Part shown: piece by piece, positions 1-27,790 of the stretch
Layout: the number at the start of each line of letters is the position of its first letter
How positions within the stretch are numbered: the stretch's first letter is position 1
IMG/VR virus record: IMGVR_UViG_3300030098_006570
Span: 32,001 to 96,000 of that record
DNA from: a virus
Strand: one strand, 5' to 3'
Length of the DNA stretch: 64,000 nt
Notes under the pieces: model-generated
What the model was told of the DNA's origin: nothing
What the model saw: only the letters and a program-made list of their open reading frames with translations
The model's database searches: none
Program-made: the position numbers and the translations under genes

Positions 1-613
1 GGCTCTGCTCAGTCCGCAGAGCAGCTGCGCCGCGGAAGTTCAGAATGCTAGACGTCGAGACAGTACCCGAAGCAACAATCGTAATTCCTGTGCACAGCAG
101 CGACGAGGTCGGAGACGAGTAGCCGTTGTTGAGAGCATAAGGACCGTCCTCAGAGAACGCACCGGTAAGGTTGACACCACCAGTAAGCTGGGCACCCACC
201 ACGTTGCCTCCGTAAATGGACGAACCACTGGGGTAGCCATCATCGAAGACACCACGAGCACGACCACCGATCTGACCAGAGATCGTGAAGTCGAGGAAGA
301 AGATGAGGCCTGAGGGCAGGCTCATCGGCTGGACGCTAACGAGATCGTTGGCGATCAGGTTGCCGAAGACTCGGCGAACGAGGGGGAATGCAACAGCTGC
401 AAAACCCTCAACGTCACCAGCACTCATGCTGGAAGACTCACGGAGAAGCTCCTTTGCCTGGTTCTCAAGCAATCGGGCCATTCCGTTCCGAAGACCATCA
501 TCGCTAATTCCCTCAAGCAGTCCGGTGTTCTCCCACTTAGAAATGAGAGCGGCACCTTCGGCCGAGAGGTCACGGTTGACGATTCCTTCGGTTAATTTCT
601 GTACAATAGACAT
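1..613 (-). CDS. gp23: Major capsid protein, T4 gp23-like (5' part; runs off the window start)
   Basis: Not in the ORF track. Manual translation from ATG at 613 gives MSIVQKLTEGIVNRDLSAEGAALISKWENTGLLEG...MARLLENQAKELLRE...AFPLVRRVFGNLIANDLVSVQPMSLPSGLIFFLDF. The KW..LLEG, LLENQ and PLVRR..VQPM..P.G motifs are typical of gp23. An AGGAGG SD precedes it and it lies directly downstream of the scaffold. Confidence 0.95.
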   Translation of the reverse strand, partial: MSIVQKLTEGIVNRDLSAEGAALISKWENTGLLEGISDDGLRNGMARLLENQAKELLRESSSMSAGDVEGFAAVAFPLVRRVFGNLIANDLVSVQPMSLPSGLIFFLDFTISGQIGGRARGVFDDGYPSGSSIYGGNVVGAQLTGGVNLTGAFSEDGPYALNNGYSSPTSSLLCTGITIVASGTVSTSSILNFRGAAALRTEQS

Positions 614-640: not shown

Positions 641-1735
641 TCATTTATTATTCAAACCTGCTAAACGCAGCATGCGATCCATCTTAGAATCGCGAGTTGC
701 CGTGTTGTTTTTCTTAGAATTGATCAAAAGCGACGTTGGTCTTGTAACAGCTTCACGAAGTGTTTGTGGACGTGTTCTCTGATCAGGAGTGTTCCCCACT
801 GCGTTTTGAATTGTTTCATAGATCATCGCTGCTTCTTCAACAGAATTGGCAGTCTGAACAGCTTCGGCAATTTGATTCTTTTGCCGCTCATTCAAGGAGG
901 TGCTATTCAAAGCCTTGTTTTGATAAACAAGCTTGGCGTTTGCCAAGTTCAACTTATTAAGCTGAGCCTTGGCCTCCATAATGAGAGCACGTAGCTCTCG
1001 GTTGGATTCTTTGAGTTCGGAAATCTTGGCCTCATAAAGGCCGGCGTCGCTCACGACGTCAGGGGCCGTATCGACTTCCTCTTCGATATCTTCTTCTTCC
1101 AGGTGAGCAGCCTGGGCAGCGGCCATGGCATCGTTGTTGGCCTGCTCGACACTGTTGTACGCAGAGTTGACAGAGGACCAGCCCTGGGGGCGCGGGGTCA
1201 TATCTACAACCAACTCTTCAATCAGGTCGGCCAAGAGTTCCTCACTTAAAGGAATCTCTTGGTCTTCTTCTAAGTCCACTCGCGCAGAGGATCCGGCGAG
1301 TTCGGCGGAGTCCTCTTCCGCATCGTTGTCTAGCATTGTGTCAGTAATCTCTTCGGCTAGCTCAAGCGAATCATTGAGATCAGCAGCGCTGGCCTCAACC
1401 CCGGCGGCCTCCTCCTCGGCGATACGAGTCTTCAGGGCATCAAAATCAATTTCAACCAACTCGTCAGCCGCGGGGGCATCCAACTGTTCGCTCTGGAAGC
1501 CGTAAGGCACATCTTCCATAAAAGTTGTGGAAGGGGCAGCTGCGACGCCGTCGTCTTCCTCAAGGCCTCCAAGGCCCATGGCGGCATCGTCGCCCATTTC
1601 CTGTTCTAGCAGGGTGTTGACTGCTGTACGTACCTCGTCCGCATACCGTTCGAGGACGGCCGACTCTGCATTTTTGAGTGCGGCCTCCTTGAGGGCGCCA
1701 GCATCTACGATTGCTTCTTCTAATAAGGAAGACAT
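641..1735 (-). CDS. Prohead core/scaffolding protein
   Basis: Very acidic, coiled-coil, with many LxE sites. Immediately upstream of the major capsid gene. C-terminus DRMLRLAGL. Confidence 0.8.
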   Translation of the reverse strand: MSSLLEEAIVDAGALKEAALKNAESAVLERYADEVRTAVNTLLEQEMGDDAAMGLGGLEEDDGVAAAPSTTFMEDVPYGFQSEQLDAPAADELVEIDFDALKTRIAEEEAAGVEASAADLNDSLELAEEITDTMLDNDAEEDSAELAGSSARVDLEEDQEIPLSEELLADLIEELVVDMTPRPQGWSSVNSAYNSVEQANNDAMAAAQAAHLEEEDIEEEVDTAPDVVSDAGLYEAKISELKESNRELRALIMEAKAQLNKLNLANAKLVYQNKALNSTSLNERQKNQIAEAVQTANSVEEAAMIYETIQNAVGNTPDQRTRPQTLREAVTRPTSLLINSKKNNTATRDSKMDRMLRLAGLNNK

Positions 1736-5511: not shown

Positions 5512-7374
5512 CTAGTAGATGCTCCACTTATCGGAAGCGACATACATCAAGTTGACCGCACCGTCATCGGAGACAATATCCACGGAATCTTCGCCGTCGA
5601 TAGTCTGCGTTCCAGCATGATCAACCACGATCTTGAAGCCACCAAGGCTACTCGGAGCCTTCACGTTAACAACCTGACCAATGGTCGGGCTGGCTGGAAG
5701 GGTCCATGTGCGATTAGCAGTAAGCGTGGTAGTACCATAGTTGAAACCAACCTGGAGAGTACCCGCCGCATCGCCGATGCCCTGGACGTTGGCGACAATG
5801 TCACCAGTCACAGTACCGTAAATGTTAGCAGCCTGAATATCGATCAGGTTGCCCGACTCATCACGAGCAACAAAAATGTCACCAGATGCGGATGCATCAC
5901 CAGTACCGTTCGTCAGGTATACCCACTCGAAATAGTCGGAGTTATCAGCAGCGTAAGGCATGCGGATGGCAGAGCCAGCAGCGTTTGCCTTGCTGCTTGA
6001 ACCGGAGCCGATTGTTACAGTCTTGTCTTTAATCACCAATTCATCGGTGTTGACCGAAGTGATGGTTCCAGCAACGTAGAAGTTACCACTAGCACTCATG
6101 TTTCCGTTGATAGTCAGACCAGCAAAAGTCGGGCTGTCACTGGTACCGAGACCAAGACTCGTACGAGCAGTGGCGCCGCTCTCATAAGCAAAGGCGCCTG
6201 CGCCAGTAGCAACAATGAATTCACCATCAGCAGAAGGAGCGCCGAGAGTGTCAAGATCTTCGAGGACCCCGTCAACAGCAACAGTGACCGAACCACCAAG
6301 GGACACAGCACCCAGAGCAGCCATACCAGCACCCTGTGTGAGAGTGATGGAGCTGTTAGCAAGCTTGGCGTTAGCGATCGAACCAGCGAGGTTATCGTTG
6401 GTGATTGAGTTATCAGGCAAGAAAACGTTACCAGAAACATTCAAGCGCGCGCTCGAACCCACACGGAGTTCTCCGGTAGTGTCCAAATAAAAATTCGAAC
6501 CAGAGATCGACCCCTCCCGAGTAATCGAGGCGGACGCGGCCGTCGAGCCGCCGGACTCATAAAACGACATATCAGTACCCCATACAGTGAAACCCTGGTA
6601 GTCGTCAGCCACATCGTGAGAATGAATCTCAATACCCGCCGAAGCAGAGATAAGCAACGGCGTAGCGTCGGATCCGCCTTGGCCACTGTTCAACATTGCA
6701 TAATACGTATCACCATGGTCGGTCTCGAAGTAACCCAGGGACATGTGGTCAGAAATAACTACATCCTTACCTGCCTTCGAGTTAGAGCCGGAGATGTGAG
6801 CCTCTTTAATGCTCTTGGCCGCACTACCGAGTGAGGTCTGACCGTCAGCATCAGGGATAATATCGGAGCCGACGCCGGGGACGATATTGCCCGCGACAGA
6901 CAGAGCACCAGAGCCCGAAAGGGTGGTGAACTTACCAGCAGCCTGTGAGCTGGCTCCAACAGTAGTTCCATCAATTGCACCACTGTCAACATTAATGTTG
7001 GTGATGGCCTGGCTGTTAGCATCAAGTGCTGCACCAAGCTGATCAGCCTGAAGGCTGTCAATGTATGCTACACCGTCAATGTACAGATCCTTGAACTCAG
7101 CGCCAGAAGCACCAAGGTCAGTGCCAGCATCTGATTGCGGCTTGAGTGCCGTACCGTTGACGACCTGATTAGCGCCCATAAGGACAAGATCGTTGCTGCC
7201 GTTGGAGCTAATCTTTACTGAGCCACCGTCTCCGTTAAAATAGACAACACCGTCGTTGTTAAGAACAACATCGTTGGCTACCTCAACATCAGCCGAGCCA
7301 GAAAGGTCGGCGCCGCCGACTAGTTTAATATCACCTGGGGACTGGAATGTTCCCAATTGAAATTTATATGCCAT
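5512..7374 (-). CDS. Fibre/decoration-type structural protein (620 aa)
   Basis: Gly/Ser/Asp-rich fibre-like repeats and a C-terminal TLPA..G..V.VK...TIDG...GAV.L...W.IY module shared with two upstream genes. Strong AGGAGG SD and its own terminator. Confidence 0.75.
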   Translation of the reverse strand: MAYKFQLGTFQSPGDIKLVGGADLSGSADVEVANDVVLNNDGVVYFNGDGGSVKISSNGSNDLVLMGANQVVNGTALKPQSDAGTDLGASGAEFKDLYIDGVAYIDSLQADQLGAALDANSQAITNINVDSGAIDGTTVGASSQAAGKFTTLSGSGALSVAGNIVPGVGSDIIPDADGQTSLGSAAKSIKEAHISGSNSKAGKDVVISDHMSLGYFETDHGDTYYAMLNSGQGGSDATPLLISASAGIEIHSHDVADDYQGFTVWGTDMSFYESGGSTAASASITREGSISGSNFYLDTTGELRVGSSARLNVSGNVFLPDNSITNDNLAGSIANAKLANSSITLTQGAGMAALGAVSLGGSVTVAVDGVLEDLDTLGAPSADGEFIVATGAGAFAYESGATARTSLGLGTSDSPTFAGLTINGNMSASGNFYVAGTITSVNTDELVIKDKTVTIGSGSSSKANAAGSAIRMPYAADNSDYFEWVYLTNGTGDASASGDIFVARDESGNLIDIQAANIYGTVTGDIVANVQGIGDAAGTLQVGFNYGTTTLTANRTWTLPASPTIGQVVNVKAPSSLGGFKIVVDHAGTQTIDGEDSVDIVSDDGAVNLMYVASDKWSIY

Positions 7375-7532
7375 TATAAAATCCTCCTATAGATTATGGC
7401 GAAACGTGTAAGAAATTAGAAGAAAGTTACGAAGTGGGCGCATCGAGGCGCAATGGACCATAATATATCCACATTCGTTTCTGATACAATTAGACGTGCG
7501 GAGAGAGAAAAGCTTTTAATATTTTTTATTTT

Positions 7533-8300
7533 TTAGTAGACGTACCAATTACTACCATCGGTATACATATGAATCGCGCCATAAGGCGATTGAATAGTGA
7601 GACTGGATGTATTATCAATTAGCTGGCTGGCTGATGCTTTAAGGGTGATGGGAGTTGTAGGGTCGGCACTTCCCACTTCGTCCTTTACTACATATGTCTG
7701 ACCTCCCACGCATTTTGTAGCATCAAATAAAATCTCAAGGGATGCCGCTCTTACCCCTAAATAATACTCATTGGCGGCAGCCGTATGATTTGTAGTAATG
7801 GGGGTCCTAGCATGGACCAGTCCAGCTTTGATCTGCATTGCTTTATTTGTAAAATCATAAAGCACCAGAGCGCTTCCCGAGATCCCCCCCGAGCCTGTTT
7901 GAAACTGAAGAGCACCCACGGGGCCCTGGGCGCTGGCGGAGCCTCCTCCCCCACTGGCCGTAATCCCAGTAAGATAGCGACCGTCGCCATAGAAAAAGGC
8001 AGCGGAAATATTATTGCTCGCTGATATAAGACCAGTGTTGTCAAGGAGAACCTTGGTGATTCCCCCATTGAGAATGGAAAGGTTAGCCCCATCAAAAGTG
8101 AGATCAGCCTCACCTCGCAGAGTCTTTCCGGTGGTATTAGTAAAGGTTATTAAACGATTGTCGTCAGGGGTGACGACATATTCGGGAATTTGAGAAGTAG
8201 GGAAGGCGAGTTCGGACCCATCTCCCGAAAAAGTGCCCGTGAGAGCAAGGCTGGCGGAGTGGAGTTGCTTGATTGTTCCTGATAATGCATTGTACGCCAT
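7533..8300 (-). CDS. Short fibre-like structural protein (255 aa)
   Basis: FYGDGRYL and SASAQGPVGALQF motifs, plus the same C-terminal module (VVKDEVG...LID...YGAI..YTDGSNWYVY). Confidence 0.7.
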   Translation of the reverse strand: MAYNALSGTIKQLHSASLALTGTFSGDGSELAFPTSQIPEYVVTPDDNRLITFTNTTGKTLRGEADLTFDGANLSILNGGITKVLLDNTGLISASNNISAAFFYGDGRYLTGITASGGGGSASAQGPVGALQFQTGSGGISGSALVLYDFTNKAMQIKAGLVHARTPITTNHTAAANEYYLGVRAASLEILFDATKCVGGQTYVVKDEVGSADPTTPITLKASASQLIDNTSSLTIQSPYGAIHMYTDGSNWYVY

Positions 8301-21964: not shown

Positions 21965-24900
21965 TCATTGATTTACCCTCGCAAAGCCATCTTTCTTATC
22001 GATCGTAATTTCTAGATCCACAATGTCTTTTAGTGAATCCACGTGAGAAATAAGGATGACGGTTTTGAAATACATCTTAATTAGCTGAAGGATTCGAATA
22101 AATCCTTCCATATTCTCAGCATCTAGCGCGGTGCCGGGCTCATCAAGAATAAAGATATTACCCTTCGGTAGTGAAGACACCGAGAGCAAAGCCAAGCGAA
22201 TAGCCATAGCTGCCACTGTCTTCTCTGCTCCTGAGCCCATCTCGATAGGTCTCGGTTCGTGTTTGGGATGCTTGATCAGGATATCTAGCTTGCGACCGTC
22301 CTCCTGAAAGAAAACATCAAAGTCTACAATATTAGAGAGAACCTTTGCTACCTCTCCGTTAATAACTGGCAAGCGCTTCTTGATAATATCATAAGCAATA
22401 CCATTAGAGTGAGTACATCGCATAAACAAATCATAAGCCGCATATTCCTCTCGTATCTCGTCAAGCTCTTGCTTCTTTTCTTTTAGGTCTTCAACCTTCT
22501 GTTCCATAGAGCCAAGCTGCCTATTATGAAGGTTGATAGAATTTTCAGTCTCCGCTATCTCAGTCTGAAGGTCTGCCACCTTCTTGTCGACCCTTGTGCG
22601 GGAGTTGATAAGCTTCTCAATATTCTTGATCAAATCCTTCTTCTCTTCATACAGCTCGATCTTTTCTTTAGTGGAGCGGAGATTGTCTCTGTATCCCTTT
22701 ATCTTCGCATAGAGTTTTTCAATAGAAACTTTGTTGTCTCGCTTCTCAATCTCAATATTATTCTTTTGAATTATGGTGTTGTTATAGTTTTCAATCAAGC
22801 TGATCATTTCGGCGGAGTTTACAGAAACAACCTTCGTCTTATAATCTTTGGCTTGTTCGATCCTCTCAATAATCTCCGCCTCTAAAGAGGGTAGCTCCAC
22901 TGCAGCTAAATGAGCATCGCTGATAAATTGGCAGGTAGGGAAGCTGTTCCCGCAGGGAACTTCATCCAGCAGATGTAGCTTCTTGGTCATAGCTTTATAG
23001 TCGTTATCCATAAGGCGAGCTTTGTTGACTGTATCCTCATACTTCTGCTTAAAATCATCATAACTTTGTTTCTGCGCCAATAAGTCCTCGATATCGATCG
23101 TCGTCAAGAAGTCATCGTATTCCTGAAGCTTTTCTTCGTAGTCTTTATTCTCTTGCTTCAGTTCTACAATATTGATATCTGTATCTTCAATCTTCTTTTC
23201 AAGGGCTGCGCGCGTCTCTAGTAAATTCTTGATGTCTAAACGCTCCGCGGGGATCGAGTCGATCTGTGTTGTCAGGCTGGCTTGTTTCTCTATGGCCGTG
23301 GCCAGACTTGTTCTTAAACTCTCACAGCTGGCTACCTCGCCGAGGAGCGCTTTTTTCACTTCGTCATGCTGCACCTCCGCAATTGCGATGTCAGTATTAT
23401 AATCCGTATCGCCTACGCGTCGAATTACGGCCTTTAGATCGGCACTATCCTCGTGGGCCAGCTTAAACTTTTTCTCAAAGATATCTAAATCCAAGAACTT
23501 AGCTAGGATTTCCTTGCGACGAGTAGAGCCCTCTTTAATAAAGGATAAACTATCGAGTTGACTCGACATGGATGTCAACAAAAAATCCTCTACTGTGCCG
23601 AATCGTTTTCGAATATGGGCGTCTGTCTCGTTGCGGGTGGTGCCGTTGAGGCTAGTTTCCTCTCCCACCATGGGATCTAAGCCGCTAAATTCCAAGAATG
23701 TGCGTGCCTCATTGGTTACCTCACCCTTTAGTTTCCTTACATACTTCTCAGACTGGCGCTCGATCGTGTAGGTCTTGTCGCCTACTTGGAGTTCCAGACG
23801 CCCCATACAATCTTTTCGATTTTGATTGATGATATTGTAGTTCTTGCGCTCGTTCTTTGATGTGGTATTGAACATGGTATATAGGAGGCCGTCAATAATG
23901 CTGGACTTACCTGAATAGTTCTTACCGAAAATTCCGACGATGCCATTGAGGTTGCTAAAATCAACGCTATTACCCTCTCCATAGTTGAACAGATTATCCC
24001 ACTCAAACTTATTGAGATTCCAATTTACATTTCGGGCGACCTCTTCGGTCTCTTCAATCTTGGAATTGTACTTGCGGTTGAGTTCGAACACACGTTCCAA
24101 CATTTGCTCAGTGGGCTGGTATTCCACTAGGTACTCTCGAATGAGATCTTCCTGCACGCCTTTGTCCCGGAGGTTCTCCACTTTGAAGCCGGTACCGACC
24201 TCAACCGTTCCCCGCTCGCCAGCGGCACGATTTAGGAAGGTAATACTCTCAGGCTTGAAACGGTGCTTGGCAACCTCCACAGCCTTACGCATAACGTCAA
24301 GGGGAAGATTATTGTTGCTCACGAGACGCAAGCGTGAAGTCGGGGGAATCTTGGTGCCCTTTGGCATTCGGCCCTTGGGTGTGAGTTCGATTGTTACGAA
24401 TGGTTTAGGGTTGAGCAAAACATGATGCTTGACCGTGAATGTATTCTTGTCTTCAATTTCCCAAATAAGAAATCCCTTGTCATTTGTCTCACCGTGATTC
24501 TGCTGAACGGTGCTACCGCAATAGCGCACTCGACCTTCTGTATCAAGAATCTGGTTTGTCTTATGAATATCACCAAGCATTGCGAAGTCGTGACCGGCAA
24601 ACACTCCAATGTCGTGATCCCCATGATCCATAACCCATCCGACGTCAGTAGACACTCCGCCGATTGCGCCGTGATACAAAGCAATATTAATACGCGACTG
24701 GTCGCTTGGCGCAACCCAATTCTCCTCATCAAACACAGATAGCACGTTGAGCGCGAGATCGGGCTCTACGACGGTTTCACCGGCATTCTTGAGCAGATGG
24801 AGGTTAGGAAGATTCAAAGCGCTTACAATGGGCGACAGCGCGTCCTGACGAGTACTGTTCTTCAGGTTGCCGTCGTGGTTGCCCAAGATGATGTAGGTTG

Positions 24901-25117
24901 GCGCGATCGATGCCAGATTCATGAAGAAGTCGGAGCATAGCTCAACGAACTCTGGTGAGATCTGGGTCTTGGTGTGGGCGATGTCGCCGCAGTGAACAAT
25001 GTAGTCCACGTTCTCTTTACGAAGCGTCTCATAAAGCTGTTCGAATACTTTCTTGTATTCGTAATGATATTTTAAATTTTTTATATGCGTGTCCGCAATG
25101 TGAGCAATTCTATACAC
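21965..25117 (-). CDS. Fused Mre11/SbcD nuclease - Rad50/SbcC ATPase (T4 gp47+gp46-like)
   Basis: N-terminal metallophosphoesterase motifs DTH, GDIAH, GNHD, GDIH. Then Walker A GKNYSGKSS, long coiled coil, signature GSGAEK, Walker B FILDEP and ISH loop. Confidence 0.92.
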   Translation of the reverse strand: MYRIAHIADTHIKNLKYHYEYKKVFEQLYETLRKENVDYIVHCGDIAHTKTQISPEFVELCSDFFMNLASIAPTYIILGNHDGNLKNSTRQDALSPIVSALNLPNLHLLKNAGETVVEPDLALNVLSVFDEENWVAPSDQSRINIALYHGAIGGVSTDVGWVMDHGDHDIGVFAGHDFAMLGDIHKTNQILDTEGRVRYCGSTVQQNHGETNDKGFLIWEIEDKNTFTVKHHVLLNPKPFVTIELTPKGRMPKGTKIPPTSRLRLVSNNNLPLDVMRKAVEVAKHRFKPESITFLNRAAGERGTVEVGTGFKVENLRDKGVQEDLIREYLVEYQPTEQMLERVFELNRKYNSKIEETEEVARNVNWNLNKFEWDNLFNYGEGNSVDFSNLNGIVGIFGKNYSGKSSIIDGLLYTMFNTTSKNERKNYNIINQNRKDCMGRLELQVGDKTYTIERQSEKYVRKLKGEVTNEARTFLEFSGLDPMVGEETSLNGTTRNETDAHIRKRFGTVEDFLLTSMSSQLDSLSFIKEGSTRRKEILAKFLDLDIFEKKFKLAHEDSADLKAVIRRVGDTDYNTDIAIAEVQHDEVKKALLGEVASCESLRTSLATAIEKQASLTTQIDSIPAERLDIKNLLETRAALEKKIEDTDINIVELKQENKDYEEKLQEYDDFLTTIDIEDLLAQKQSYDDFKQKYEDTVNKARLMDNDYKAMTKKLHLLDEVPCGNSFPTCQFISDAHLAAVELPSLEAEIIERIEQAKDYKTKVVSVNSAEMISLIENYNNTIIQKNNIEIEKRDNKVSIEKLYAKIKGYRDNLRSTKEKIELYEEKKDLIKNIEKLINSRTRVDKKVADLQTEIAETENSINLHNRQLGSMEQKVEDLKEKKQELDEIREEYAAYDLFMRCTHSNGIAYDIIKKRLPVINGEVAKVLSNIVDFDVFFQEDGRKLDILIKHPKHEPRPIEMGSGAEKTVAAMAIRLALLSVSSLPKGNIFILDEPGTALDAENMEGFIRILQLIKMYFKTVILISHVDSLKDIVDLEITIDKKDGFARVNQ

Positions 25118-25146
25118 GTTATCCCCTAAAACAAAACTCTATCACC

Positions 25147-25174
25147 AGTATACACCAGTGATAGAGCCTGTCAA
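25147..25174 (-). promoter_or_regulatory. Sigma70-type promoter TTGACA-N16-TATACT; the -10 box lies inside a 9-bp inverted repeat
   Basis: Perfect -35 and near-consensus -10 upstream of the GTG at 25117. CTCTATCAC/GTGATAGAG inverted repeat at 25137-25166. A-tract (UP-like) upstream. Confidence 0.75.
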
Positions 25175-25208: not shown

Positions 25209-25658
25209 TTAAAAGTTTCTTGGATAATCGCGCTTAATGGCGTGAACACGTTCGCCCTTGGCTAGCCGGCCTTTGATCCTATCTACATCACCCTGATGGA
25301 GGCGACCTTTTGACTTTTCAAATTCTGCTTTCCGAATAAGATCCTGAGCCTCAGCGTTGCTCTCCTCCATCGGAGCGTACATCGGGTTGGCCAGGATGTG
25401 ACGAAGCGAAGCAACCATGTCGGCGTCCAAACTCATACTGAGATCTTCCAACTCATCGCGGGTCATCTTGCCCAGGGCCTCTCTAGCCTTTATGAGAATG
25501 AGAAGCCGCTCTTCGGGGGATGTGAAGGCCCGGTCGCGAGTCTCCTCATCCTCCGGTTCGGCGATATCTTCAATGCCAGCACCGGGGCGGTCGGCGCCGC
25601 GCATGGCATCCATCTCTTCCTTGATAATCTTTTTAAGTCTTTGTTTCGTGATTTTCAT
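25209..25658 (-). CDS. Leader-motif protein 4 (MKITKQRLKKIIKEE..., 149 aa)
   Basis: Shared N-terminal leader, ATGA-coupled to the upstream gene. Confidence 0.75.
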   Translation of the reverse strand: MKITKQRLKKIIKEEMDAMRGADRPGAGIEDIAEPEDEETRDRAFTSPEERLLILIKAREALGKMTRDELEDLSMSLDADMVASLRHILANPMYAPMEESNAEAQDLIRKAEFEKSKGRLHQGDVDRIKGRLAKGERVHAIKRDYPRNF

Positions 25659-25987
25659 GGCTTCTTGAACCTCTCCTTGTCGGATCTATAATCTCCAGCA
25701 GAACGCTTGCGCCCGATCCTTTTCAGTCCCTGCCGCATTCTTTTGATCTTCTCTGGTGTAATTTGTGGTAATTCTAGGGTTGCTTCTTCGTCCTCTTTCT
25801 CGGACTCTTCCTTCATGGGGCCGCTGCACATCTCTTCGGCCTCTGCTTTGGACAGTCCCTCAGGACGGTCGGCATCTTCGTCAGCCATGGCGCACATGTA
25901 GTTACGCTGCTTTTCGGAGTGAACTTCAACCACCGAAGCAATCTCTTCTTTGATAATCTGGTGTAATCTTGTTTTACTAATCTTCAT
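25655..25987 (-). CDS. Leader-motif protein 3 (MKISKTRLHQIIKEE..., 110 aa)
   Basis: Shared N-terminal leader, GGAG SD. Confidence 0.75.
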   Translation of the reverse strand: MKISKTRLHQIIKEEIASVVEVHSEKQRNYMCAMADEDADRPEGLSKAEAEEMCSGPMKEESEKEDEEATLELPQITPEKIKRMRQGLKRIGRKRSAGDYRSDKERFKKP

Positions 25988-26109
25988 TTCTTGGTCTCCA
26001 TTGTACCTAAGAGGTCTTCGCCCATGTATCGAATCTCATAAACCATTACTGCTCTCAAATAGAGTATTTCTTGAATCATGTTTGTTAGGTGGGCTCCTGA
26101 TATCTTCAT
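25984..26109 (-). CDS. Leader-motif protein 2 (MKISGAHLTNMIQE..., 41 aa, possibly degenerate)
   Basis: Below the ORF-track cut-off. It exactly fills the gap, starting 1 nt after the upstream stop and overlapping the next start (ATGA). Confidence 0.5.
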   Translation of the reverse strand: MKISGAHLTNMIQEILYLRAVMVYEIRYMGEDLLGTMETKK

Positions 26110-26110
26110 T

Positions 26111-26344
26111 TTATAGAATATTTTTTAGCGCGTCGTTCAGGAAGTCTCGGAGATTCTCTATAGCTACATACTGCACTGCTTCCCGAATAGCACCATCAAG
26201 CTCTTCAAGAACACCTATTTCGGTTTGGCTTTTGCCGTATCTTTCGGCAGGAGTTCGCATATCGGGCTCTTCCTCTTCTGTTACGGCACCGAGTCCTATC
26301 TCTTCCTTGATGATTTCTCGTAATCTTTGTTTGGTGATTTTCAT
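26111..26344 (-). CDS. Leader-motif protein 1 (MKITKQRLREIIKEE..., 77 aa)
   Basis: True start at ATG 26344 with AGGAG SD. Leader DNA is nearly identical to that at 25658. Confidence 0.75.
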   Translation of the reverse strand: MKITKQRLREIIKEEIGLGAVTEEEEPDMRTPAERYGKSQTEIGVLEELDGAIREAVQYVAIENLRDFLNDALKNIL

Positions 26345-26352
26345 GACTTCTC

Positions 26353-27288
26353 CTACAGCGACATGGCAATTGTCAACAATAAATAGTTGTCCGGAGTGAT
26401 AAGAGTCGCATTTTCCAGGCATTTCTGGAATTGTCCCTTATTCATAGACCCGACGTCTTCGTTATCACCGATATCAACCTTCCAAACCTCGATATCAAAA
26501 TCCAGCAAAGTTTTGATAATTTCAAGCTCTTTCTTCTTTGCGTCAGGGTCTAGCGCCACATAAACTCCCGCGTCTTCTTTCACGATCCTACGGAGCAAAA
26601 CAGAGTTCTGATTTAATGTAGACCCCAGAATGGGGACTGCGTTCCTGCCCGCTGTAATGGCATCAAACACACCCTCTACCAGAATGATATCGGAACTCCA
26701 GTCCACAAATAAATCGTTGAAGACAATATTCTTGCTGACCGGAGGATTCTTGTACTTAGGATAGAACTTCTTGTCGTAGGAGCGAGACACAAAATATGTC
26801 AGATCGCCCTCTTCGTCAAACGACGGAATAATGATACGACCTTCGTACTCGCCACTGGCGCAGTAGCCCATCTTCCACCACATGATATCTTTCTTATCGA
26901 TACCGCGCTTGCGTAGATAGTTACGGGCCGCGAACCCTGTGGGTGGAACATCTTTGCTGGCCAGAGAAACAAAGCCCTCGGGCATCTCAACTACTTGCTT
27001 TTCTTCAATTGTCTCTGCGAAAAGATCTTCGAGCTTGTCATATTCAACAGCGTCAGTAAACTCTCGCCAAGCTGCCTTATCAGAGTGATTGCCGAAGCGG
27101 CGAATAACACGATAGATATTTTTACCACGCGTGTCGCATATCCAGCATTTGTAGTAGCCCTTAGCCACATTGACAGAAAACTTACGCTTATGATGATTAC
27201 AATAGGGACAAGCAAATAGATACTCATTGTTGGATCTGTACGCTGGCCCGAGGACGTTAGTTAGAATCTTGAGTTTCTTGGCTTTCAC
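26353..27288 (-). CDS. DNA primase (Zn finger + TOPRIM)
   Basis: CPYC...CWIC zinc-binding domain, YLRKRGI, RIIIP, LVEGVFDA, LDPDA. Probable GTG start at 27288. Confidence 0.9.
   Translation of the reverse strand: MKAKKLKILTNVLGPAYRSNNEYLFACPYCNHHKRKFSVNVAKGYYKCWICDTRGKNIYRVIRRFGNHSDKAAWREFTDAVEYDKLEDLFAETIEEKQVVEMPEGFVSLASKDVPPTGFAARNYLRKRGIDKKDIMWWKMGYCASGEYEGRIIIPSFDEEGDLTYFVSRSYDKKFYPKYKNPPVSKNIVFNDLFVDWSSDIILVEGVFDAITAGRNAVPILGSTLNQNSVLLRRIVKEDAGVYVALDPDAKKKELEIIKTLLDFDIEVWKVDIGDNEDVGSMNKGQFQKCLENATLITPDNYLLLTIAMSL
26378..26388 (-). promoter_or_regulatory. Putative late promoter (AACTATTTATT) for the leader-motif cassette
   Basis: CTATTTAT motif within the primase 3' end, about 34 nt upstream of ATG 26344. 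Confidence 0.6.
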
Positions 27289-27790
27289 GTATCCATCCCG
27301 CCTTTGCAATCACATAGCTATCCGAACGGTCGGCGTAGCCAGCCTTTGGATTACCATGTCTTGTGTATTCTATATCAAAGGAGGGTACGTTGTCAAGCAC
27401 AAACTGAAGCGCGACGGCTTTTGCCTTATGGCCCTTGGGAACCTTGATGCCACAACTTTTTCTAGCCGACGTAGCAGCGATATATTCGGGCTCGATTCCA
27501 AAAAGATTATAACATATCCATGAAACAATGCCATTTATTTTTGACAATAAAGATAATGTCTGTGCTGATGAAAATCCAGAGCGGAAAGACTGAAGGGACT
27601 GTTCCACATAAATGTGCTCAATAAAGTAATCATTTCGTATTGCCGCTAGCCGACCCTCAACCGCAGAACACTTCTGAAAGAAGTTCTTTTCTTTACGAAG
27701 ATCTATATGGTCGCAGACGACGATATTGCCGCTATTATCCAATATGGTGTAGCCAGTAATACTGGTTGAGATGTCAAGTCCTAAAATCAC
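27257..27790 (-). CDS. ruvC: RuvC-like Holliday junction resolvase
   Basis: ILGLDISTSITGY, IYVEQ and DRSDSYVIA catalytic acidic residues. Confidence 0.85.
   Translation of the reverse strand: MILGLDISTSITGYTILDNSGNIVVCDHIDLRKEKNFFQKCSAVEGRLAAIRNDYFIEHIYVEQSLQSFRSGFSSAQTLSLLSKINGIVSWICYNLFGIEPEYIAATSARKSCGIKVPKGHKAKAVALQFVLDNVPSFDIEYTRHGNPKAGYADRSDSYVIAKAGWIRESQETQDSN

What the first reader, a model, noticed from the sequence alone, without database searches (positions are those of the whole stretch)
25209..26388. Cassette of four unrelated small proteins sharing an N-terminal leader: a candidate capsid-targeting/cargo system
Seen: four tandem, tightly coupled ORFs begin MKITKQRLREIIKEE (26344), MKISGAHLTNMIQE (26109, absent from the ORF track), MKISKTRLHQIIKEE (25987) and MKITKQRLKKIIKEE (25658). 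They share nothing obvious after about residue 15. Two of the leaders are nearly identical at DNA level. The cassette sits between replication genes yet has its own late-type promoter motif (26378-26388). Similar leaders start two head-module genes: MRISRAELDRLIEAEINE (11856) and MKKSELKKIL...CIKE (10246). Known: T4 internal proteins carry a short N-terminal capsid-targeting sequence removed by gp21, which cleaves after (I/L)-x-E, and T4 IPI* is an injected anti-restriction protein. Inference: this leader is a modular address tag ending in an I-K-E cleavage site. It would load interchangeable payloads, possibly anti-defence or host-takeover factors, into the head for injection.
Basis: partly seen in the sequence, partly recalled or inferred. 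Interest (0 to 1): 0.85.

Follow-up and report, generated by a model that had tools for sequence, protein, structure and literature searches.

The report
Head-loading leader tag on phage proteins
An uncultured ocean relative of phage T4 puts the same 16-residue N-terminal tag, ending in its head protease's cutting motif, on a fast-changing set of small unrelated proteins; the tag most likely loads them into the forming head as T4's tag does, but no packaging or cutting has been measured.

Summary
Four translationally coupled minus-strand ORFs (77, 41, 110 and 149 aa) start with MKI(T/S)K.RL..IIKEE and are alike only in about the first 19 residues. One correction: the 41-aa ORF is the orphaned N-terminal piece of the gene family of the 110-aa ORF.

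- **Spread:** I found 326 unique leader proteins in 199 IMG/VR loci. The leader is always at an N-terminus. The payloads fall into 201 sequence clusters.
- **Selection:** it acts on the peptide, because all synonymous codons are used.
- **Cut site:** Glu14 is essentially invariant and never Asp, which gives I12-x-E14, the L/I-x-E rule of T4 gp21.
- **T4-type head:** the genome has an S77 (gp21-type) protease, a gp20-type portal and a gp23-type capsid protein.
- **Link to the head:** in relatives the same leader starts the genes flanking the prohead protease, including scaffold-like proteins.
- **Late-type promoter motif:** CTATTTA lies inside the primase 3' end and is invariant in 28 of 28 relatives.
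- **Second leader:** MKLIMENWRKFL.E has the same length, also has E14, and replaces the first leader on the same payload.

Best reading (0.6): a T4-style capsid-targeting and cleavage leader. Injection and anti-defence roles are unproven, and most payloads are acidic, unlike T4's basic internal proteins. I class it as a new variant of a known kind. The scan has already noted this tag in other genomes.

The parts
26380..26386 (-). CTATTTA late-type promoter core, inside the primase 3' coding end and 42 nt upstream of the ORF1 start
   Evidence: Genome-wide, CTATTTA occurs 23 times on the coding strand and 0 times on the other. About 10 copies lie 25-45 nt upstream of an SD plus start codon, including the sheath gene and the gene after the capsid gene. 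GACAACTATTTA is invariant in 27 of 28 relatives (GATAACTATTTA in L030) and CTATTTA in all 28, while neighbouring synonymous sites vary.
26111..26344 (-). ORF1, 77 aa: leader MKITKQRLREIIKEEI plus an acidic payload
   Evidence: Leader profile score 34.2 bits. A GGAG lies 6 nt upstream and overlaps the primase stop codon. One 70%-identical homologue in L188. No Pfam or PHROG hit.
25984..26109 (-). ORF2, 41 aa: degenerate leader MKISGAHLTNMIQEIL; the orphaned N-terminal fragment of the ORF3 gene family
   Evidence: In L147 the ORF2-like 41 residues (66% identity) are fused in frame to the ORF3 payload EVHSEKQRNYMCAM.... ORF2 has no SD of its own, and its stop overlaps the ORF3 start as ATGA.
25655..25987 (-). 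ORF3, 110 aa: leader MKISKTRLHQIIKEEI plus a payload with the conserved YMCAM...EEMC(S/T)GP segment
   Evidence: 30.2 bits; homologues in L147, L121, L030. No significant Pfam or PHROG hit.
25209..25658 (-). ORF4, 149 aa: leader MKITKQRLKKIIKEEM, a disordered acidic linker and a small helical payload
   Evidence: AF2 with 49 sequences gives helix 5-21, pLDDT below 50 for residues 23-43, and helices from 48 to 144. At least 120 homologue clusters in marine metagenomes, all unnamed and without Pfam hits. The same payload carries the alternative leader MKLILENFKKFINEEE in L020, L022 and L024. Foldseek against the PDB found no match.
26353..27309 (-). DnaG-type primase, the upstream flank of the hyperplastic site
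   Evidence: Pfam DNAG_N and Zn_ribbon_DnaG. 247 relatives in IMG/VR.
21965..25117 (-). SbcD-SbcC fusion nuclease, the downstream flank, with its own sigma70-type promoter at about 25118-25170
   Evidence: PHROG 77 and 100. TTGACA-N16-TATACT is seen. The primase-SbcCD gap is 9-32 nt in many distant relatives and 0.4-5.4 kb in others.
11859..12458 (-). Prohead serine protease, S77 (T4 gp21 family): the presumed processing enzyme
   Evidence: Pfam PF03420, E = 3.6e-32.
10243..11856 (-). 537-aa protein immediately after the protease: diverged leader MRISRAELDRLIEAEINE and a scaffold-like C-terminal tail ...RMKVLAGIK
   Evidence: Orthologues L231, L214 and L236 share NEIFGFGKK..EYP.SEL and carry progressively more canonical leaders.
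641..1735 (-). Scaffold-like protein (364 aa), highly conserved; its N-terminus MSSLLEEA carries L-x-E sites and it has no leader
2..613 (-). N-terminal 204 residues of the gp23-family major capsid protein
   Evidence: PF07068, E = 2e-60. BLASTP against T4 gp23 places L57-R58-E59|S60 opposite T4's L63-T64-E65|A66 maturation site.
15039..17048 (-). gp20-type portal protein
   Evidence: phrog_213, E = 6.5e-78.

Best explanation
The shared N-terminus is a portable address-and-cut-site module of 16-17 residues, of the same kind as the capsid targeting sequence (CTS) of phage T4 internal proteins. It forms an amphipathic helix (consensus MKITKxxLKQIIKEEL) joined by a flexible linker to an exchangeable payload.

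Proposed sequence of events:
1. The cassette is transcribed from a late-type CTATTTA promoter embedded in the primase 3' end.
2. The leader docks the protein into the scaffolding core of the prohead, together with leader-bearing core or scaffold-like proteins encoded beside the protease.
3. The S77 (gp21-type) protease cuts after Glu14 (I12-x-E14) and frees the payload inside the head.

The primase-SbcCD junction is a hyperplastic site. Payloads are gained, lost and re-headed there, partly by recombination within the leader itself.

Shown here: the anatomy, N-terminal exclusivity, payload diversity, peptide-level selection, the invariant Glu, co-occurrence with S77 and a T4-type head, use of the leader on protease-flanking genes, leader swapping, and conservation of the promoter motif.

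Inferred: docking, cleavage, and retention of the payload in the virion. Ejection into the host and any anti-defence role are speculative.
For: 1. **N-terminal only.** All 81 core-motif hits in unbiased loci follow a start codon. Of 397 profile hits scoring at least 12 bits, 367 begin at M and 20 at GTG.
2. **Diverse payloads.** 318 payloads form 201 BLASTP clusters, 172 of them singletons. Pfam finds nothing for most. Exceptions are a pentapeptide-repeat protein (E = 1.5e-42), a J-domain that begins exactly at residue 18 (E = 1e-14), a GNAT, and a 2H-phosphodiesterase-like domain.
3. **Peptide-level selection.** All 6 Leu codons occur at L8, all 3 Ile codons at I11 and I12, and GAA/GAG are 151/152 at E15.
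4. **Cut-site motif.** [LI]-x-E with the E at position 14 occurs in 310 of 315 leaders. With a pattern that leaves positions 13-16 free, position 14 is E in 109 of 110 and never D. T4 gp21 cuts after L/I-X-E, and Asp at the CTS P1 position blocks processing (PMC9026906).
5. **T4-type head.** S77 protease, gp20-type portal and gp23-type capsid protein. The capsid protein has L-R-E aligned to T4's known E65 cleavage site.
6. **Link to the head module.** In 29 of 80 protease-anchored loci a strong leader ORF lies next to the protease: 16 start within 60 nt after its stop and 13 lie within 1.6 kb upstream, the T4 gene 67/68 position. Counting weaker forms the figure is 42 of 80. Some of these proteins also end in the scaffold-like ...W/RM..LAGI tail.
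7. **Co-occurrence with S77.** 11 of the 13 large leader-bearing contigs searched for PF03420 carry it; the 2 without are 44% and 60% complete, and all 3 complete genomes have it. Four further contigs of 95 kb or more already appear in the protease-anchored loci, so 15 of 17.
8. **Interchangeable leaders.** A second leader, MKL[IL][ML]ENW[RK]KF[LIV]xE, has the same length and register and also has [LIV]12-x-E14. It replaces type 1 on the 149-aa payload: 67% identity over 105 residues in a gapless alignment.
9. **Late-type promoter motif.**
10. **T4 parallel, checked on the T4 record.** ipII and ipIII are tandem genes among non-structural genes. They share an identical 30-nt 5' end that encodes MKTYQEFIAE, which ends phi-phi-x-E like this leader.
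11. **Architecture.** The AF2 model has a leader helix, a disordered linker and a folded payload.
Against: - There are no proteomic, N-terminomic or expression data. No cultured phage carries the leader: none in Syn9, S-PM2, P-SSM2, HTVC008M, immuto, Mel-JY01 or Melnitz, and no match in the phage collection.
- The leader shows no significant sequence homology to the T4 CTS. Only the terminal phi-phi-x-E is shared.
- The residue after the proposed cut is Glu15 in about 95% of leaders. The T4 sites checked here have a small residue there: E|A in gp23, and PMC9026906 reports a Glu-Ala bond in gp22.
- Payloads are mostly acidic (66% have net charge of -3 or lower; median -5). T4 internal proteins are basic (PMC9026906). 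Acidic proteins may be expelled when DNA enters the head.
- ORF1 abuts the primase stop codon, so early read-through expression is possible.
- Calling CTATTTA 'late' rests only on its position upstream of structural genes. In the window alone, ACTATTTA is only modestly enriched (6 observed against 2.1 expected).
- Co-occurrence with S77 is weak evidence, because most large marine phage contigs are T4-like.
Confidence: 0.6

Rival explanations
1. The targeting is the same but the fate differs. The leader proteins are auxiliary prohead-core or scaffold fillers, like T4 gp67, gp68 and gp22. They enter the core through the leader, are cut up at internal L/I-x-E sites, and are expelled when DNA enters. 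They are therefore neither cargo nor injected.
For: Payloads are mostly acidic and largely helical or disordered, as scaffold proteins are. T4 gp67 itself has ...IDLIKEEK... followed by an acidic tail. The same leader heads scaffold-like proteins beside the protease, and a leader-like helix recurs at their C-termini. The window payloads contain further [LI]-x-E sites.
Against: The payloads are extremely diverse and turn over quickly even between relatives with 80-93% identical primases. Some are folded enzymes or binding domains: pentapeptide repeats, a J-domain, a GNAT and a 2H phosphodiesterase. Neither feature is expected of structural fillers. The density of [LI]-x-E in payloads is only about 2 sd above shuffled sequence (495 observed against 463 +/- 17).
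Confidence: 0.22
2. The leader has nothing to do with the capsid. It is a shared N-terminal helix that docks diverse small proteins onto some other common partner, such as a host factor or the replisome. On this view the cassette is expressed with the primase as early or middle accessory genes.
For: The cassette lies between replication and repair genes, and ORF1 starts 8 nt after the primase stop codon. No binding to a head protein has been shown.
Against: The same leader heads genes flanking the prohead protease in 29-42 of 80 loci, including proteins with scaffold-type tails. Glu14 is invariant and never Asp. A motif shared with structural-gene upstream regions is conserved at synonymous sites in front of the cassette. 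T4's ipII and ipIII also lie among non-structural genes.
Confidence: 0.1
3. These are ordinary tandem paralogues. One small gene duplicated and diverged fast everywhere except its N-terminus, which is kept alike by gene conversion or as a translation-initiation or recombination element at the DNA level.
For: The genes are tandem. The ORF1 and ORF4 leaders are 81% identical in DNA. The ORF2/ORF3 split shows that recombination occurs at the leader.
Against: Synonymous codons vary freely at the conserved residues. The payloads include unrelated Pfam folds. A J-domain starts exactly at residue 18. A leader of a different sequence type sits on the same payload. The window proteins align only over residues 1-19.
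Confidence: 0.05

Closest known systems
Capsid targeting sequence (CTS) of phage T4 internal proteins IPI, IPII, IPIII and Alt, removed by gp21 (Mullaney & Black 1996, as reviewed in PMC9026906, PMC3012670 and PMC5694885)
   Same: - A short N-terminal propeptide shared by otherwise unrelated proteins.
- It ends in hydrophobic-hydrophobic-x-Glu, which fits L/I-X-E.
- The phage has an S77 protease and gp20- and gp23-type head genes.
- The genes are tandem, lie among non-structural genes and vary between relatives.
- In T4, ipII and ipIII share an identical 30-nt leader.
   Different: - The leader is 16-17 residues long, against 10 in IPII and IPIII, and has no significant sequence similarity beyond the last four residues.
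- It comes in two interchangeable sequence types.
- It is also used on scaffold-like proteins beside the protease.
- Payloads are mostly acidic rather than basic.
- The residue after the cut site is Glu.
- Packaging, cleavage and ejection have been shown for T4 but not here.
T4 prohead core proteins gp67 and gp68 (genes between portal gene 20 and protease gene 21)
   Same: Small leader-bearing genes sit in the same portal-to-protease interval in 13 relatives. T4 gp67 contains ...IDLIKEEK... and an acidic tail, which resembles the leader-plus-acidic-run proteins such as L240:5604-5924.
   Different: No detectable homology (no Pfam or PHROG hit). The window cassette lies outside the head module. 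The gp67 motif is internal, not N-terminal.
Long N-terminal propeptides of ejection proteins in giant phages (phiKZ, 201phi2-1, SPN3US), cut by S77-related proteases (PMC5694885)
   Same: Propeptide-directed incorporation of diverse head proteins, followed by cleavage after Glu.
   Different: Those propeptides are about 80-130 residues long, are not one shared short tag, and use an (S/A/G)-x-E motif.
Cargo-loading peptides of encapsulins and the C-terminal coat-binding helices of scaffolds (P22; 80alpha and SaPI1 CpmB)
   Same: A short terminal helix acts as an address for loading into an HK97-fold shell. This genome also has a scaffold-type C-terminal tail on a non-scaffold protein (earlier finding e1-5836422).
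   Different: Those tags are C-terminal and are not removed by a maturation protease. No sequence relationship.

Membership tests
T4-type capsid-targeting-sequence / internal-protein system | A short (10-19 aa) N-terminal propeptide shared by proteins that are otherwise unrelated | tested here: met
   A 16-17 aa leader on 326 unique proteins whose payloads fall into 201 clusters. The window proteins align only over residues 1-19.
T4-type capsid-targeting-sequence / internal-protein system | The propeptide ends in the gp21 cleavage motif L/I-x-E | tested here: met
   I12-x-E14 in 310 of 315 leaders. E14 in 109 of 110 unbiased leaders, never D. The type-2 leader also has [LIV]12-x-E14.
T4-type capsid-targeting-sequence / internal-protein system | The phage encodes a gp21-family (S77) prohead protease and a T4-type head (gp20, gp23) | tested here: met
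   PF03420 E = 3.6e-32; phrog_213 portal; PF07068 E = 2e-60. S77 is present in 11 of 13 large leader-bearing contigs searched, and 4 further such contigs appear in the protease-anchored loci.
T4-type capsid-targeting-sequence / internal-protein system | Sequence homology of the leader to the T4 CTS (MKTYQEFIAE) | tested here: not met
   Only M-K at the start and phi-phi-x-E at the end are shared. The lengths differ (10 against 16-17). The T4 CTS was verified on NC_000866.
T4-type capsid-targeting-sequence / internal-protein system | Leader-dependent incorporation into the prohead core | not testable with these tools
   No cultured member exists. Indirect support only: the leader is shared with genes flanking the protease.
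T4-type capsid-targeting-sequence / internal-protein system | Removal of the propeptide by the prohead protease | not testable with these tools
   Only the motif and the invariance of the Glu are available.
T4-type capsid-targeting-sequence / internal-protein system | The mature proteins are small basic DNA-associated proteins that are ejected with the DNA | tested here: not met
   They are small (median 108 aa), but 66% have a net charge of -3 or lower and only 9% of +3 or higher. Ejection cannot be tested.
T4-type capsid-targeting-sequence / internal-protein system | The locus is hypervariable between related phages | tested here: met
   The primase-SbcCD gap ranges from 9 nt to 5.4 kb. Relatives whose primase C-terminus is at least 83% identical carry 1-5 leader ORFs with different payloads.
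T4 gp67/gp68 prohead core proteins | A small gene between the portal and protease genes, with homology to gp67 or gp68 | tested here: not met
   The window cassette lies between the primase and SbcCD genes. There is no Pfam or PHROG hit for the cassette or for the head-module leader proteins. The positional criterion is met only by leader genes in 13 relatives.

The most novel reading that the evidence does not exclude
An abundant, wholly uncultured clade of ocean T4-like phages uses a universal 14-residue 'address plus Glu14 cut site' module. It comes in two interchangeable sequence types and is shared by scaffold-like core proteins and a hyperplastic, recombination-fed repertoire of mostly acidic cargo, including pentapeptide-repeat, J-domain, GNAT and 2H-phosphodiesterase proteins. 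That cargo would be packed into the head and delivered with the DNA as ready-made host-takeover or anti-defence factors. If so, it is a large unexplored effector pool and a natural, swappable packaging tag.
Probability: 0.3. Interest if true: 0.8.

Novelty: new variant of a known kind. Interest (0 to 1): 0.62.

Why it matters
If the tag works as proposed, T4's capsid-targeting principle is not a peculiarity of the T-even phages. It would be a general, evolvable delivery system in one of the ocean's abundant phage groups: the scaffold of this clade alone has more than 1,600 relatives in metagenomes.

The tag would also mark hundreds of unnamed small proteins as probable virion cargo, which gives a rational way to find injected effectors in viral dark matter. 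The two interchangeable leaders, the exact domain boundary (a J-domain starts at residue 18) and the invariant Glu14 make the idea directly testable with the cloned protease and leader fusions. A validated tag could be used as a packaging signal for engineering.

If instead the proteins are only core fillers, the finding still describes how a diverged T4-type prohead core is built.

Tried and rejected
- **Family searches.** Pfam and PHROGs on the four cassette proteins and on ten head-module leader proteins gave no informative hit.
- **Cultured phage collection.** BLASTN of the region, TBLASTN of an 85-aa head-module leader protein, and BLASTN of a leader cluster from a complete 186-kb relative all gave no match.
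- **Pattern scan of seven cultured T4-like aquatic phages.** No leader was found, so no published virion proteome can be used.
- **Full-text search for the motif strings.** It returned only irrelevant papers. A search for marine internal or prohead-core proteins found no description of this tag.
- **Fold search.** Foldseek of the 149-aa model against the PDB found nothing at E <= 0.001.
- **Complex prediction.** Scaffold (alignment A3) with leader plus linker (A2, residues 1-47) returned 'no answer', with a score of 0.00 against a mark of 0.32. This is evidence neither for nor against binding.
- **Rejected: DNA-level repeat or regulatory element.** Synonymous sites vary freely.
- **Rejected: paralogues of one fold.** Payloads have unrelated Pfam domains and form 201 clusters.
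- **Rejected: signal peptide or membrane anchor.** The leader is highly charged (K2, K5, R7, K9, K13, E10, E14, E15) and has no hydrophobic core.
- **Rejected: the 10246 gene as a leader member.** Its orthologues score only 4-5 bits.
Full report
**1. The observation**

The region 25209-26388 carries four minus-strand ORFs that start at 26344, 26109, 25987 and 25658.
- Their first 16 residues are MKITKQRLREIIKEEI, MKISGAHLTNMIQEIL, MKISKTRLHQIIKEEI and MKITKQRLKKIIKEEM.
- They are coupled: TAA-A-ATG joins ORF1 and ORF2, and ATGA overlaps join ORF2/3 and ORF3/4.
- ORF1 starts 8 nt after the primase stop codon, with GGAG in the spacer.
- BLASTP of the 149-aa against the 110-aa protein aligns residues 1-19 only.
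- These are the only strong copies in the 148,084-bp genome.
- None has a significant Pfam or PHROG match.

**2. The genome**

This is a distant T4-type myovirus. IMG/VR classes the record as linear, and CheckV estimates it at about 82% complete.
- **Head genes:** a gp20-type portal (phrog_213, E = 6.5e-78), a large terminase, an S77 gp21-family prohead protease (PF03420, E = 3.6e-32) and a gp23-family capsid protein (PF07068, E = 2e-60).
- **Tail:** a sheath gene.
- **Nearest cultured phages by portal:** Microcystis phage Mel-JY01 (43% identity) and the Flavobacterium immuto phages (37%).
- **Capsid cleavage site:** BLASTP of the capsid N-terminus against T4 gp23 places L57-R58-E59|S60 opposite T4's L63-T64-E65|A66. 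T4 gp23 loses a 65-residue propeptide (PMC5694885), and gp21 cuts after L/I-X-E (PMC9026906).

**3. The leader is a widespread N-terminal module**

I anchored on the primase and fetched 80 related IMG/VR loci.
- **Unique proteins.** Across 199 loci there are 326 unique leader proteins. The consensus is MKITKxxLKQIIKEEL. M1 and E14 are invariant, and K2, K5, L8, I11, I12 and E15 are at least 90% conserved.
- **N-terminal position.** In the primase-anchored loci, which were not chosen for the motif, all 81 core-motif hits in six frames follow a start codon. A leader profile finds almost no internal copies.
- **Peptide-level conservation.** All six Leu codons occur at L8, all three Ile codons occur at I11 and I12, and GAA and GAG are equal at E15.

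**4. The payloads are unrelated and exchangeable**

- The 318 payloads form 201 BLASTP clusters, 172 of them singletons.
- Pfam is silent for nearly all. The exceptions show true modularity:
  - L166:3806-4585 carries pentapeptide repeats (E = 1.5e-42).
  - L110:6893-7471 carries a J-domain whose Pfam model starts at residue 18, directly after the leader (E = 1e-14).
  - One protein carries a GNAT domain.
  - L145:5840-6343 carries a 2H-phosphodiesterase-like domain.
- The 149-aa window protein has at least 120 homologue clusters in marine metagenomes, all unnamed.
- Its AF2 model (49 sequences, pLDDT 74.6) shows a leader helix at 5-21, a disordered acidic linker at 23-43 and a small helical domain. 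Foldseek found no PDB match.
- Its alignment shows one conserved core with several alternative C-terminal tails.

**5. A second, interchangeable leader**

ORFs in the same loci start MKL[IL][ML]ENW[RK]KF[LIV]xE.
- There are 25 unique examples, at N-termini, with diverse payloads.
- L020, L022 and L024 carry this leader on the payload of the window's 149-aa protein. The alignment is 67% identical over 105 residues, has no gaps and keeps the two leaders in register.
- Both types share M1, K2, hydrophobic residues at 3, 8, 11 and 12, and Glu14.
- The window genome has two type-2 genes outside the window: G000:C1:123600-124328 and 6975-7571. The second sits behind CTATTTA.

**6. The Glu**

- [LI]-x-E with the Glu at position 14 occurs in 310 of 315 leaders.
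- The pattern-derived loci forced GAR at this position. I therefore repeated the count on the anchored loci with a pattern that leaves positions 13-16 free. Position 14 is E in 109 of 110 and never D. Position 15 is E in 102 of 110 and never D.
- In T4, Asp at the CTS P1 position blocks processing but not targeting (PMC9026906). A strict Glu requirement is therefore what a protease site predicts.

**7. Link to the head module**

I anchored on the protease and fetched 80 more loci.
- **After the protease.** In 16 loci a strong leader ORF starts within 60 nt after the protease stop. An example is MKITKTRLKQIIKEELEAVVNEEEEE..., 105-124 aa.
- **Before the protease.** In 13 loci one or two leader ORFs lie within 1.6 kb upstream, the T4 gene 67/68 position.
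- **Totals.** That is 29 of 80 loci, or 42 of 80 with weaker forms. For comparison, complete genomes of about 185 kb carry 3-7 leader genes.
- **The window's 537-aa protein.** Its orthologues share NEIFGFGKK..EYP.SEL, and their N-termini grade from MRISRAELDRLIEAEINE (window) to MKISKEELQKIINEEV (L236).
- **Scaffold-type tails.** Several of these proteins also end in the scaffold-type tail (...RWQKIAGI...QKLAGLIKG...RMKVLAGIK). One combines the leader, a weak ParB-like nuclease match and that tail.
- **C-terminal copies.** A leader-like helix also recurs at the C-termini of L201, L262 and L276.

Core-position proteins and cassette proteins therefore share one address.

**8. Co-occurrence with S77**

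- Of the 13 large leader-bearing contigs searched, 11 carry S77. The two without are 44% and 60% complete. All three complete genomes have it.
- Four more such contigs were already in the protease set.

**9. Expression signal**

- CTATTTA occurs 23 times on the coding strand of the genome and never on the other strand.
- About ten copies lie 25-45 nt upstream of an SD plus start codon. These include the sheath gene, the gene after the capsid gene, and several large genes in the part of the window that holds the very large ORFs, whose structural role I assume but did not test. One copy lies before ORF1.
- Early genes such as SbcCD instead have TTGACA-N16/17-TATAmT promoters.
- Inside the primase 3' end, GACAACTATTTA (codons D-N-Y-L) is invariant in 27 of 28 relatives and CTATTTA in all 28 (L030 reads GATAACTATTTA). 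Neighbouring synonymous positions vary.
- Two cautions apply. The label 'late' rests on association only. In the window alone ACTATTTA is only modestly enriched (6 observed against 2.1 expected).

**10. A hyperplastic site and leader-mediated shuffling**

- The primase-SbcCD gap is 9-32 nt in many distant relatives and 0.4-5.4 kb in others.
- Close relatives carry 1-5 leader ORFs with different payloads.
- ORF2 is a remnant. L147 encodes one protein made of an ORF2-like segment (66% identity over 41 residues) fused to the ORF3 payload. In the window a fresh leader copy separates the two parts.
- L010 shows the reverse case. A type-2 leader plus an extra module is fused upstream of a decayed type-1 leader (...LKAAVKEEMDAMRG...).

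**11. Comparison with T4**

- On NC_000866, ipII and ipIII are tandem genes between denV and e. They share an identical 30-nt 5' end that encodes MKTYQEFIAE.
- Reviews report the following:
  - CTSs are 10-19 residues long.
  - Residues 4 and 7 drive targeting, and residues 8 and 10 drive processing.
  - The internal proteins co-purify with gp22.
  - The internal proteins are basic.
  - They vary between relatives while keeping CTS-like leaders (PMC9026906, PMC3012670, PMC10229621).
- The marine leader shares the logic and the terminal phi-phi-x-E.
- It differs in several ways. It is longer and not detectably homologous. It comes in two types and is also used on scaffold-like proteins. It carries mostly acidic payloads (median net charge -5).

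**12. What remains open**

- Nothing here measures packaging, cleavage or ejection.
- No cultured phage has the tag.
- The complex prediction gave no verdict.
- The acidic payloads and Glu at P1' keep the 'expelled core filler' rival alive.

My estimates:
- 0.6 that the leader is a prohead-core address with an S77 cut site.
- About 0.3 that the payloads are also delivered effectors.

The scan has already noted the same tag in other genomes (e1-5709060, e1-5772432, e1-5772437). Within this project it is a recurring theme, not a first sighting. I found no published description.

Noticed in passing
G000:C1:123600-124328 (-) and G000:C1:6975-7571 (-) (outside the window); L020:6971-7285, L022:5206-5559, L024:6948-7295: A second N-terminal leader type, MKL[IL][ML]ENW[RK]KF[LIV]xE. 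It has the same length and register as the first, also has [LIV]12-x-E14, and sits on diverse payloads. It loosely recalls the capsid propeptide segments ELLNKWKPLLE (T4 gp23) and ALISKWENTGLLE (this phage).
   Followed up: partly
L201:5607-6374, L276:4459-4998, L262:3804-4529: Head-module proteins that start with the leader also end with a leader-like helix (e.g. ...ISEILKRIIREELESLSE). This suggests that the helix pairs with itself, or that both ends dock on the same receptor.
   Followed up: no
L277:704-1729: The protein immediately after the protease combines the leader, a weak ParB-like nuclease match (PF08857, E = 4.7e-4, below the cut-off) and a scaffold-like C-terminal tail (...WKELIKG).
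   Followed up: no
G000:C1 about 122183 (-), outside the window: A 115-aa ORF, MTKTELLNIIREEVEVVLTNAEAIEVFDL..., has a shortened leader-like N-terminus (10 bits). CTATTTA lies 30 nt upstream. The ...VVLTNEEA.EMFG segment recurs in other loci (L112, L113).
   Followed up: no
window 25118-25170; genome-wide intergenic regions: Early or replication genes carry canonical sigma70-type promoters (TTGACA-N16/17-TATAmT). The host polymerase therefore reads -35/-10 promoters, which argues against a Bacteroidota host despite the phage-encoded bS21 noted by another reader.
   Followed up: partly
L001:6971, L009:7164-7739, L010:7173-7901, L011:6950, L029: A small recurring module, K.S.KI..L...GKP.DQAVAIAL.MKDRGE, appears in several cassette proteins behind either leader type. 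It is another shuffled building block.
   Followed up: no
window 12462-13310 (-): A 282-aa, extremely charged Arg/Lys/Glu/Asp-rich protein lies directly upstream of the protease. It has no family match and is a candidate core or DNA-condensing head protein.
   Followed up: no
window 25655-25987 (-) and homologues in L030, L121, L147: The ORF3 payload keeps two cysteines in a conserved YMCAM...EEMC(S/T)GP segment. This may be a small disulfide or metal-binding knot.
   Followed up: no
L279:6782-7024 (T4 gene 67): T4 gp67 contains ...TIDLIKEEKIA... followed by a long acidic tail. In outline this resembles the leader-plus-acidic-run proteins that follow the protease in the marine clade.
   Followed up: no
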